A stretch of 64,000 bases of DNA from the NCBI RefSeq assembly GCF_058153355.1, contig NZ_CM177019.1; one strand, 5' to 3'. The position numbers and the translations under genes were made by a program. Below the pieces are notes generated by a model, which did not search any database, had not been told where the DNA came from, and saw only the letters and a list, made by a program, of their open reading frames with translations. Below, piece by piece: positions 22,067 to 22,406 of the stretch (the first letter of the stretch is position 1; every line of letters begins with the position of its first letter).

Positions 22067-22239
22067 TGGCCTTTAATGCGTAACACTATAGCCCCTTGTA
22101 TTTTTCTTTGAAAGTTACCCTTCAATAATATCGACAATTCGAAAATAAAAGCATAGGGCAAAAATTGCAGCAAAAATAGCTTAATGCATTGAAAATAAAT
22201 GAATATTTCCATATCTGTCCAAAGGCATCATTGGTTTCA

Positions 22240-22254
22240 TTTTCAAAGTGAAAA
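22240..22254. promoter_or_regulatory. Candidate operator palindrome TTTTCA-AAG-TGAAAA
   Basis: Perfect 6-3-6 inverted repeat in divergent intergenic region between DeoR gene and aldolase operon. Confidence 0.4.
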
Positions 22255-22337
22255 ATAAATTAAGTTATTTTTTGTAAGTTATTTTGATGATATTCGACAT
22301 GCGTCACGCTTTTTACCGCTTTTGCTGTGCTAGTTTG

Positions 22338-22352
22338 CTTTCAAAATGAAAG
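22338..22352. promoter_or_regulatory. Candidate operator palindrome CTTTCA-AAA-TGAAAG
   Basis: Perfect 6-3-6 inverted repeat about 55 bp upstream of aldolase ATG; related copy ttcattttgtaaggtgaa at 22368-22385. Confidence 0.4.
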
Positions 22353-22406
22353 TGAAGATTCTCTTTCTTCATTTTGTAAGGTGAACGACAAATATCAGGA
22401 GCTGCG

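What the first reader, a model, noticed from the sequence alone, without database searches (positions are those of the whole stretch)
22236..22385. Repeated TTTCA-N3-TGAAA palindromes in the island's divergent promoter region
The 340 bp AT-rich region between the DeoR gene and the aldolase operon holds two perfect 6-3-6 palindromes, TTTTCAaagTGAAAA (22240-22254) and CTTTCAaaaTGAAAG (22338-22352). Related copies ttcattttcaaagtgaa and ttcattttgtaaggtgaa (22368-22385) lie just upstream of the aldolase Shine-Dalgarno. Repeated dyad sites next to a DeoR-family gene are the expected layout for its operators, suggesting repression of the operon and autoregulation.
Basis: partly seen in the sequence, partly recalled or inferred. 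Interest (0 to 1): 0.45.

Follow-up and report, generated by a model that had tools for sequence, protein, structure and literature searches.

The report
TagR repressor operators, tagatose island
The repeated TTTCA-N3-TGAAA palindromes are real and are best read as binding sites of TagR, the DeoR-type repressor of the E. coli D-tagatose island; this system was published in 2025, so the finding is correct but mostly ordinary, and it covers only part of a larger five-site array.

Summary

The locus is the E. coli D-tagatose island (tagK-tagR, divergent from tagYABCDE). Park et al. 2025 (PMC12226905) mapped both transcription start sites. They showed genetically that TagR is a tagatose-responsive repressor and predicted two operators.

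My comparison of about 47 tagR-aldolase intergenic regions gives a 21-bp palindromic operator, TAACTTTCA-N3-TGAAAGTTA. A matrix trained without E. coli sequences places the four best hits of the 64-kb window inside this 340-bp region.

The sites form a position-conserved array:
- O1 over the Ptag start site (21.4 bits).
- A site at +28 (tagO2).
- An unreported site at -74, just upstream of the CRP site.
- A weak site over the Preg -35 element.

The perfect symmetry of palindrome 1 is specific to this rare allele. The conserved register lies 6 bp to its left.

Direct binding has never been shown. Novelty is low: the system is already known, with modest extensions here.

The parts
20269..21204 (-). 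tagK: pfkB-family sugar kinase, co-transcribed with tagR (the reg operon)
   Evidence: NCBIfam tagatose kinase, 346 bits, below the cutoff of 420. RefSeq annotation of the near-identical locus L001. Named tagK in PMC12226905.
21236..22066 (-). tagR: DeoR/GlpR-family regulator with an N-terminal winged helix-turn-helix and a C-terminal DeoRC domain
   Evidence: Best NCBIfam hit is AgaR, below cutoff. Homologues carry PF08220 and PF00455. Shown genetically to be a tagatose-responsive repressor.
22077..22112 (-). Preg promoter: transcription start 22077, -10 TATAGT (22085-22090), -35 TTCAAA (22107-22112)
   Evidence: The dRNA-seq start site lies 11 nt upstream of the tagR ATG, with the hexamers given in PMC12226905. 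The same hexamer pair was found by the consensus scan.
22097..22117 (.). OR: weak TagR-type site over the Preg -35 element (centre at -30 from the Preg start); candidate autoregulatory operator
   Evidence: 7.1 bits in the window, which alone is not significant (p about 0.18 in IGR shuffles). Its centre lies 40-41 nt from the tagR ATG in nearly all orthologues. It is strong in Serratia (20.3 bits) and Sodalis (18.7 bits). It is invariant among five E. coli alleles.
22231..22257 (.).
   Evidence: Scores. The -104/-105 position is conserved in E. coli E69, K. spallanzanii and 11 of 26 effective paralogue loci; the -98 position is seen only in the window and Superficieibacter. The perfect dyad is absent from the majority E. 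coli alleles.
22261..22281 (.).
   Evidence: 12.9 bits, second-best hit in the 64-kb window. A site at -73/-74 from O1 occurs in 10 of 11 effective orthologue loci and 14 of 26 paralogue loci, with 5.5 more at -62 in Orbaceae. It is a near-perfect palindrome in Budvicia (22.9 bits). The block TTTTGTAAGTTAT is conserved and invariant among the E. coli alleles.
22293..22308 (.). CRP site TTCGA-N6-TCACG, centred at -42.5 from the Ptag start (class II position)
   Evidence: Predicted in PMC12226905. The right half, GTCACGC, is invariant in orthologues. Paralogue loci match 9 of 10 consensus positions at a fixed distance from O1.
22310..22343 (+). Ptag promoter: -35 TTTTTA (22310-22315), -10 TAGTTT (22331-22336), transcription start 22343
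   Evidence: The dRNA-seq start site lies 64 nt upstream of the tagY ATG, with the hexamers given in PMC12226905, mapped onto the window sequence.
22335..22355 (.).
   Evidence: 21.4 bits, the best hit in the window and never reached in 5,000 IGR shuffles. Present at this position in all 13 orthologues and all anchored paralogues. Published as predicted tagO1.
22363..22383 (.).
   Evidence: Only 4.8 bits with the symmetric matrix. However, TCTTCRTTTTGTAAG is conserved in Enterobacteriaceae orthologues, and all paralogue loci have a site at +31 to +33. Published as predicted tagO2.
22407..28765 (+). tagYABCDE operon: class II tagatose-bisphosphate aldolase, ABC transporter, tagatose kinase, DUF4432/epimerase-like protein
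   Evidence: Family hits, RefSeq annotation and functional validation in PMC9720028.

Best explanation
The palindromes are operators of TagR, the DeoR-family repressor encoded next door. They belong to a five-site array that controls the divergent Preg and Ptag promoters of the D-tagatose island.

The operator is a 21-bp palindrome, TAACTTTCA-N3-TGAAAGTTA. Its core, CTTTC-N5-GAAAG, is presumably read by a dimer of winged-helix domains.

Proposed mechanism:
- O1 (22335-22355) covers -8 to +13 of Ptag, so bound TagR blocks RNA polymerase.
- O(+28), in the leader, is a helper site about 28-30 bp from its partner O1.
- O(-74) and the distal site at -104/-98 form a second pair about 30 bp apart.
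- O(-74) and O1 are 74 bp apart, about 7 helical turns, and bracket the class II CRP site and the core promoter. I infer that TagR oligomers bridge the two pairs cooperatively, or through a short loop. That would give the very tight off state reported (more than 1000-fold induction).
- A weak site over the Preg -35 element gives mild autoregulation.
- Induction follows tagatose entry. The true ligand is more likely a tagatose phosphate than free tagatose, possibly made by the co-transcribed kinase TagK.

Shown: the sequences, their conservation and positions, the published start sites, and published genetic repression by TagR.

Inferred: direct binding, oligomer bridging or looping, and the identity of the inducer.
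For: The locus is the published tag island.

Published results:
- Both start sites were mapped.
- Over-expressed TagR silences a reporter driven by this intergenic region (Rint) and blocks growth on tagatose.
- tagO1 and tagO2 were predicted.

De novo dyad enumeration in 13 orthologous IGRs ranks TTTCA-N3-TGAAA first (10 of 13; shuffle mean 0.07, maximum 2). The nested CTTTC-N5-GAAAG follows. ACTTT-N7-AAAGT and AACTT-N9-AAGTT lead in the paralogue group.

A matrix trained without the window or E. coli E69 puts the top four hits of the 64-kb window inside the 340-bp IGR. No shuffle out of 5,000 gives five positions scoring at least 7 bits.

Site positions are conserved relative to O1 and the CRP site across about 37 effective loci from two TagR subfamilies:
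- -105/-104, -74/-73, 0, and +28 to +33.
- A further site at a fixed 40-41 nt from the tagR ATG.

Hits of at least 12 bits are about 700-fold enriched in these IGRs over 385 kb of flanking DNA.

The winged-helix region is 75-79% identical between subfamilies whose effector domains are only about 30% identical. This matches a shared operator.

Among five E. coli alleles, the O(-74), CRP, O1 and O(+28) sites and the Preg site are invariant, while the DNA between them varies.
Against: No biochemical evidence of TagR binding to any of these sites exists; the 2025 authors say so themselves.

Apart from O1, each window site is individually weak. The p values in AT-rich shuffles are 0.014, 0.027, 0.07, 0.18 and 0.37.

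The distal site is degenerate in most E. coli alleles (0.7-6.8 bits at -104), so it may contribute little in E. coli.

Spacings within pairs (28-30 bp) fall somewhat short of three full helical turns.

The positional statistics use a matrix trained on the same set of loci, although position was not used in training.

The published model names free D-tagatose as the inducer.
Confidence: 0.8

Rival explanations
1. Palindrome 1 (22240-22254) is a chance by-product of AT-rich sequence in this particular allele and is not itself a functional site. Only O1, and perhaps the other conserved sites, matter.
For: One perfect 6-3-6 palindrome arises in 21% of shuffles of this IGR. The perfect dyad is missing from the majority E. 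coli alleles, which read ACTTG where the window has ATTTT, and from E69. Its centre (-98) is 24 bp from O(-74), which is out of helical phase. The family-wide position is -104/-105.
Against: It scores 11.6 bits with a matrix trained on other species, third best in 64 kb. It overlaps the conserved distal-operator position. Superficieibacter has a strong site (16.8 bits) in exactly the -98 register. The same two substitutions also raise the -104 register, from 0.7-6.8 bits to 9.5 bits.
Confidence: 0.3
2. The sites are bound by a different protein. Candidates are the paralogous tagatose-pathway repressors AgaR or GatR, through cross-talk, or a global AT-tract-binding protein. TagR would then act elsewhere or indirectly.
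For: The AgaR-controlled regions of K-12 are full of CTTTCGTTT half-sites. The AgaR recognition-helix region resembles that of TagR (47% identity over residues 12-70).
Against: The palindromic arrangement scores poorly in the agaR-kbaZ IGR (4.8 bits) and upstream of gatY (5.9 bits). The motif co-occurs with a tagR homologue in every locus examined, including Orbaceae. It is essentially absent from 385 kb of flanking DNA and from the rest of the window. TagR over-expression alone silences the cloned region.
Confidence: 0.05
3. The downstream repeats (the right half of O1 plus tagO2) act at the RNA level, as a 5'-leader hairpin that affects mRNA stability or translation, rather than as DNA operators.
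For: The leader can fold 22349-22358 against 22366-22375 into a 10-bp stem. GAAAG-N10-CTTTC recurs in 4 orthologues.
Against: The fold is no better than shuffled sequence (-11.4 kcal/mol, z = 0.11; 103 of 200 shuffles fold at least as well). There is no Rfam match. O1 starts upstream of the transcription start, so half of it is not transcribed. The same motif occurs upstream of the promoter and at Preg.
Confidence: 0.03

Closest known systems
TagR with tagO1/tagO2 of E. coli Nissle 1917 (Park et al. 2025, Microb Cell Fact 24:158, PMC12226905)
   Same: It is the same locus and regulator. tagO1 is palindrome 2 (22338-22356) and tagO2 is 22363-22381 on the minus strand. The paper describes the same CRP site, promoters and start sites, and repression by TagR shown with reporter plasmids.
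   Different: The paper treats the operators as two directional 19-mers sharing 14 of 19 positions. It does not mention dyad symmetry, the sites at -74 and -104/-98, or a site at Preg. It names free D-tagatose as the ligand. The window carries a rare IGR allele that is 90-95% identical to most E. coli.
AgaR and the aga operators of E. coli K-12 (Ray & Larson 2004; recalled from memory, paper not in the library)
   Same: AgaR is a DeoR-family repressor of a tagatose-bisphosphate-aldolase pathway. It has several operators around divergent promoters, combined with CRP, and a half-site containing CTTTC. AgaR is the best NCBIfam match to TagR. The 2025 authors note the same resemblance.
   Different: The aga regions show repeated or direct CTTTCGTTT half-sites rather than the CTTTC-N5-GAAAG palindrome. 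The TagR matrix scores only 4.8 bits in the agaR-kbaZ IGR. The proteins share 47% identity in the winged helix and 21% in the effector domain.
Multi-operator DeoR-family repression: E. coli DeoR (deoO1/O2/OE) and GlpR (tandem and distant operators); established knowledge, recalled
   Same: An oligomeric DeoR-type repressor uses palindromic operators, one at the promoter and auxiliary ones tens to hundreds of bp away. Binding is cooperative or involves looping, and the inducer is a sugar phosphate.
   Different: The operator sequences differ (DeoR TGTTAGAA/TTCTAACA; GlpR TGTTCGATAACGAACA-like). The TagR oligomeric state and any looping are untested. Here the loop would be short (74 bp) and would enclose a class II CRP site.
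LacR of Lactococcus lactis (DeoR family, tagatose-6-phosphate pathway); recalled
   Same: It is a DeoR-family repressor of tagatose-pathway genes with two operators at the promoter. Its inducer is tagatose-6-phosphate, which is the precedent for a phosphorylated inducer.
   Different: It belongs to a Gram-positive lactose-PTS operon with unrelated operator sequences. No comparison was run here.

Membership tests
DeoR/GlpR-family repressor-operator system | Regulator with an N-terminal DeoR-type winged helix-turn-helix and a C-terminal DeoRC sugar(-phosphate) sensor domain | tested here: met
   NCBIfam hits are all DeoR-family models: AgaR, GlpR, SrlR, DeoR. Homologues carry PF08220 and PF00455. 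RefSeq annotates it as a DeoR/GlpR family regulator.
DeoR/GlpR-family repressor-operator system | Operator overlaps the core promoter or start site of the regulated operon | tested here: met
   O1 (22335-22355) spans -8 to +13 of the published Ptag start at 22343. This position holds in all orthologues.
DeoR/GlpR-family repressor-operator system | Several operators used cooperatively | tested here: inconclusive
   Five position-conserved sites with spacings of about 30, 74 and 28-33 bp. Cooperativity or looping cannot be tested computationally.
DeoR/GlpR-family repressor-operator system | Direct, inducer-sensitive binding of the regulator to the sites | not testable with these tools
   No EMSA or footprint has been published. 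Only genetic repression by over-expressed TagR is available.
TagR regulon operator (tagO) as published for E. coli Nissle | Sequence identity with tagO1 CTTTCAAAATGAAAGTAAA and tagO2 CTTACAAAATGAAGAAAGA at the same promoter positions | tested here: met
   The window reads CTTTCAAAATGAAAGTGAA at 22338-22356. The reverse complement of 22363-22381 matches tagO2 exactly.
AgaR operator family | Match to the site architecture seen in the AgaR-controlled regions of K-12 | tested here: not met
   The half-site CTTTC(G/A)TTT is shared. However, the palindromic TagR matrix scores only 4.8 bits in the agaR-kbaZ IGR and 12.3 bits upstream of agaS. The resemblance is in the half-site only.
Class II CRP-dependent promoter | CRP site centred near -41.5 and conserved; catabolite repression observed | tested here: met
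   TTCGA-N6-TCACG is centred at -42.5. The right half is invariant in orthologues. Paralogue loci match 9 of 10 positions at a fixed distance from O1. Catabolite repression of the system is reported in the paper's abstract.

The most novel reading that the evidence does not exclude
The tag control region may be a conserved four-plus-one operator "repressosome". Two pairs of TagR sites (-104/-74 and 0/+28) would lie on roughly the same helical face and be bridged by a TagR oligomer into a 74-bp loop that encloses the CRP site and the core promoter. The architecture is kept across two TagR subfamilies that control different uptake systems (ABC and PTS). In Orbaceae the O(-74)-to-O1 distance is about 11-12 bp shorter, roughly one helical turn. 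The always-linked kinase TagK would make the real, phosphorylated inducer, so that tagR-tagK forms a portable sensor module.
Probability: 0.35. Interest if true: 0.4.

Novelty: already known. Interest (0 to 1): 0.22.

Why it matters
The tag promoter has been developed as a tagatose-inducible expression system for the probiotic E. coli Nissle (PMC12226905).

Knowing the full operator set would allow rational tuning of leakiness and dynamic range. That set includes the 21-bp palindromic consensus, the unreported -74 and distal sites, and the Preg site. It would also tell experimenters which fragment to use for the EMSA or footprint that is still missing.

Biologically this is a standard sugar-catabolic repressor/CRP switch. 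It opens no new question. It does give a clean comparative-genomic definition of an operator shared by the regulators of the ABC-type and PTS-type tagatose clusters.

Tried and rejected
- **RNA leader hairpin (22349-22375).** It folds no better than shuffles (z = 0.11) and has no Rfam match. Rejected.
- **Chance alone.** Rejected for O1 and for the array. Kept as a live rival only for the exact register of palindrome 1.
- **Additional TagR sites elsewhere in the window.** Hits of at least 6 bits at 50524, 17484 and 62568 match the number expected by chance (3 observed, 2.9 expected). The first lies in an unrelated intergenic region. Rejected.
- **AgaR or GatR operators as the same motif.** Only the half-site is shared.
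- **A solved structure to infer oligomeric state.** phmmer against PDB sequences found nothing at E <= 1e-3, and I did not pursue structure prediction.
- **Literature on AgaR and GatR operators.** Searches did not retrieve the primary AgaR or GatR operator papers, so statements about them rest on memory and on my own scan of K-12 DNA.
- **First anchoring script.** It failed through a rounding error and was redone.

Full report
**1. What is at the coordinates**

TTTTCAaagTGAAAA lies at 22240-22254 and CTTTCAaaaTGAAAG at 22338-22352. TTCATTTTCAAAGTGAA lies at 22236-22252 and overlaps the first palindrome. TTCATTTTGTAAGGTGAA lies at 22368-22385, about 12 nt upstream of the AGGAG Shine-Dalgarno sequence at 22397-22401.

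The intergenic region (IGR) is 22067-22406, 340 bp, 32% G+C. It lies between a DeoR-family gene (21236-22066, minus strand) and a class II tagatose-bisphosphate aldolase gene (22407-23261, plus strand).

**2. Is it more than chance?**

Exact TTTCA-N3-TGAAA occurs twice in the 64-kb window, both times here, against 0.05 expected.

The region is AT-rich, so I also shuffled the 340 bp alone 20,000 times:
- One perfect 6-3-6 palindrome appears in 21% of shuffles.
- Two appear in 2.6%.
- The same 5-3-5 dyad appears twice in 2.0%.
- TTTCA-N3-TGAAA appears twice in none.

**3. Identity of the locus and what is published**

The region is 98-99% identical to a chromosomal segment present in 1,422 of 5,426 complete E. 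coli genomes. It is inserted between yhdT-panF and accC. It is the D-tagatose island of E. coli Nissle 1917 and the B2 phylogroup (PMC9720028).

Park et al. 2025 (PMC12226905) named the genes tagK-tagR and tagYABCDE and reported the following:
- **Start sites.** dRNA-seq placed one start 64 nt upstream of the tagY ATG (window 22343) and one 11 nt upstream of the tagR ATG (window 22077).
- **Predicted elements.** They predicted Ptag, Preg, and a CRP site TTCGA-N6-TCACG (22293-22308). They predicted two TagR operators: tagO1 CTTTCAAAATGAAAGTAAA and tagO2 CTTACAAAATGAAGAAAGA on the opposite strand.
- **Genetics.** A reporter driven by the intergenic region is induced by tagatose and silenced when tagR is over-expressed. 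Over-expression also blocks growth on tagatose.
- **Caveat.** They state that direct binding has not been tested.

The paper does not mention dyad symmetry, looping, or any site upstream of the CRP site or at Preg. No other paper in the library contains the operator sequence.

**4. Comparative test**

A search of one genome per species with a TagR alignment returned 72 loci:
- 15 encode orthologues at 52-92% identity: Escherichia, Superficieibacter, Enterobacter, Trabulsiella, Klebsiella spallanzanii, Serratia, Sodalis, Erwinia, Izhakiella, Tatumella and Budvicia.
- About 45 encode a paralogue group at about 40% identity: Klebsiella, Citrobacter, Kluyvera, Buttiauxella, and many Gilliamella and other Orbaceae.

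Nearly all keep the same layout: the regulator followed by a pfkB kinase, divergent from a class II aldolase. In K. oxytoca the aldolase operon continues with a pfkB kinase and a PTS IIBC protein, which is the PTS-type tagatose route. I extracted 47 regulator-aldolase IGRs.

De novo enumeration of all 5-mer dyads with spacers of 0-12:
- In the 13 orthologous IGRs, TTTCA-N3-TGAAA ranks first (10 of 13 sequences; shuffle mean 0.07, maximum 2). The nested CTTTC-N5-GAAAG follows (9 of 13).
- In the paralogue group, ACTTT-N7-AAAGT, AACTT-N9-AAGTT and CTTTC-N5-GAAAG lead.

These are registers of a single longer palindrome. A symmetrised 21-nt matrix, trained without the window and without E. coli E69, has the consensus TAACTTTCAAATTGAAAGTTA (20.9 bits).

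**5. The sites in the window**

| Site | Coordinates | Score (bits) | Rank in window | Identity |
|---|---|---|---|---|
| O1 | 22335-22355 | 21.4 | 1 | palindrome 2, tagO1 |
| O(-74) | 22261-22281 | 12.9 | 2 | new |
| distal, -98 register | 22237-22257 | 11.6 | 3 | contains palindrome 1 |
| distal, -104 register | 22231-22251 | 9.5 | 4 | overlaps the previous site, 6 bp to the left |
| OR | 22097-22117 | 7.1 | 6 | over the Preg -35 element |
| O(+28) | 22363-22383 | 4.8 | 10 | tagO2 |

So the four best hits in 64 kb all fall inside the 340-bp IGR. Three hits of at least 6 bits lie elsewhere in the window, against 2.9 expected by chance.

In shuffles of the IGR, the probability of reaching each score is 0, 0.014, 0.027, 0.07, 0.18 and 0.37 for 21.4, 12.9, 11.6, 9.5, 7.1 and 4.8 bits. 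No shuffle out of 5,000 has five positions scoring at least 7 bits. Only O1 stands on its own. The others depend on positional conservation.

**6. Positional conservation**

Positions relative to O1:
- **-73/-74:** 10 of 11 effective orthologue loci. Scores reach 22.9 bits in Budvicia, 21.3 in Serratia and 20.1 in K. spallanzanii.
- **+28 to +30:** the Enterobacteriaceae orthologues.
- **-104 or -98:** the orthologues with long IGRs.
- **40-41 nt from the tagR ATG:** a site centred at this fixed distance in nearly all loci (20.3 bits in Serratia, 18.7 in Sodalis).

The paralogue group, anchored on its near-consensus CRP site, shows the same plan. Sites lie at -105, -73, 0 and +31 to +33. In Orbaceae the set is -93, -62, 0 and +32, so the O(-74)-to-O1 distance is about 11-12 bp shorter, roughly one helical turn.

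An alignment of 11 orthologous promoter regions shows conserved blocks. They fall at the right half of O(-74) (TTTTGTAAGTTAT), the CRP right half (GTCACGCTTTT), the -10 element, O1, and O(+28) (TCTTCRTTTTGTAAG). The remaining sequence has diverged.

Across all loci, hits of at least 12 bits number 142 in 14.9 kb of IGR and 5 in 385 kb of flanking DNA. The matrix was trained on these same IGRs, but site position was not used in training.

**7. Palindrome 1 in detail**

The window carries a rare IGR allele. Only 8 of 1,421 E. coli genomes are at least 95% identical across the IGR, and 1,411 are 90-95% identical. Yet a 3-kb segment spanning the IGR and its flanking genes is 95-99% identical in 1,420 of 1,422 matching genomes.

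In an alignment of five alleles, the majority form reads GGTTTCACTTGCAAAGTGAAAAA where the window reads GGTTTCATTTTCAAAGTGAAAAA. The invariant letters are TGGTTTC and AAAGT, which are the half-sites of the -104 register.

The perfect 6-3-6 dyad is therefore created by two substitutions in this allele. Those substitutions also raise the -104 register from 0.7-6.8 bits to 9.5 bits.

The -104 centre is 30 bp from O(-74), as in the paralogues. The -98 centre is 24 bp away. Superficieibacter, however, has a 16.8-bit site in the -98 register.

The register that is used is undecided, and in most E. coli the distal site is weak.

**8. The protein side**

TagR residues 12-70 (the winged helix) are 75-79% identical to the paralogue-group proteins and 85-95% identical to distant orthologues. 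The effector domain is only 27-34% identical to the paralogues. This is what a shared operator with a diverged ligand or partner would predict.

AgaR of K-12 is 47% identical in the winged helix. The aga control regions are rich in CTTTCGTTT half-sites but lack the palindromic arrangement: the TagR matrix scores 4.8 bits in the agaR-kbaZ IGR, 12.3 bits upstream of agaS, and 5.9 bits upstream of gatY.

**9. Mechanism**

Shown:
- O1 spans -8 to +13 of the mapped Ptag start.
- The CRP site is centred at -42.5.
- O(-74) ends 11 bp upstream of the CRP site.
- O(+28) lies in the leader.
- OR spans -20 to -40 of Preg.
- TagR represses genetically.

Inferred:
- TagR dimers bind each palindrome.
- Neighbouring sites about 30 bp apart, and the 74-bp (about 7-turn) O(-74)-O1 pair, are bridged by a TagR oligomer, as in other DeoR-family systems (established knowledge for DeoR and GlpR). 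This would trap the CRP site and core promoter and account for the more than 1000-fold induction ratio reported.
- The weak OR would account for the roughly two-fold induction of tagRK.
- The published model names free tagatose as the ligand. By analogy with DeoR-family sensors, which bind sugar phosphates, I consider a tagatose phosphate more likely. The universally linked kinase TagK is a candidate producer. This is untested.

**10. Rivals**

- **Chance.** Rejected for the array. It remains a live rival for the exact palindrome 1 register (confidence 0.3).
- **Another protein (AgaR, GatR or a global factor).** Unlikely. The motif co-occurs with tagR, is specific to these IGRs, and TagR alone silences the cloned region.
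- **RNA hairpin in the leader.** No better than shuffles (z = 0.11) and no Rfam match.

**11. Verdict**

The system is already published, so novelty is low. The additions here are:
- the palindromic 21-bp consensus;
- the sites at -74, at the distal position and at Preg;
- their conservation across two regulator subfamilies;
- the caveat that the symmetry of palindrome 1 is allele-specific.

Direct binding remains the missing experiment.

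Noticed in passing
window 25655-25669 (tagB, ORF 24248-25669): The ABC-transporter ATPase gene tagB carries a 1-nt insertion relative to two other E. coli: GGTGGTTAATGCG versus GGTGGTAATGCG. This creates a premature TAA at 25667-25669 and removes about 26 of 499 residues. It could be a real frameshift, which might make the strain unable to use tagatose, or a sequencing error.
   Followed up: partly
window 20269-22066; loci L002-L061: The regulator-kinase pair (tagR plus the pfkB 'tagatose kinase'-like tagK) is conserved as a unit beside a divergent class II aldolase in about 60 species. 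It persists whether the catabolic operon uses an ABC transporter (E. coli type) or a PTS (K. oxytoca type). This suggests the kinase serves regulation, for example by making the inducer, rather than bulk catabolism.
   Followed up: partly
window 22067-22406, especially 22130-22235: The IGR of this window is a rare allele: at least 95% identical in only 8 of 1,421 E. coli genomes and 90-95% in 1,411. A 3-kb segment spanning the IGR and its flanking genes is 95-99% identical in 1,420 of 1,422 matching genomes. Variation is concentrated between the Preg operator and the distal operator.
   Followed up: partly
L027-L059 (Gilliamella and other Orbaceae): In bee-gut Orbaceae the promoter-proximal operator sits about 10 bp closer to the CRP site (33.5 bp versus 43.5-44.5 bp). 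The upstream-to-proximal operator distance is 62 bp rather than 73-74 bp, roughly one helical turn less.
   Followed up: no
L077 5112-5132 (E. coli K-12, end of the agaA pseudogene, upstream of agaS): A 12.3-bit match to the TagR matrix (TTAGCTTCGTTTTGATAGTTT) lies in the K-12 aga cluster. The aga control regions also carry many CTTTCGTTT half-sites, which hints at related recognition by AgaR.
   Followed up: no
window 22158-22180: A tandem near-repeat, GCAAAAATTGC / GCAAAAATAGC, lies 12 bp start to start in the variable middle of the IGR. It is only partly conserved among E. coli alleles and has no assigned function.
   Followed up: no
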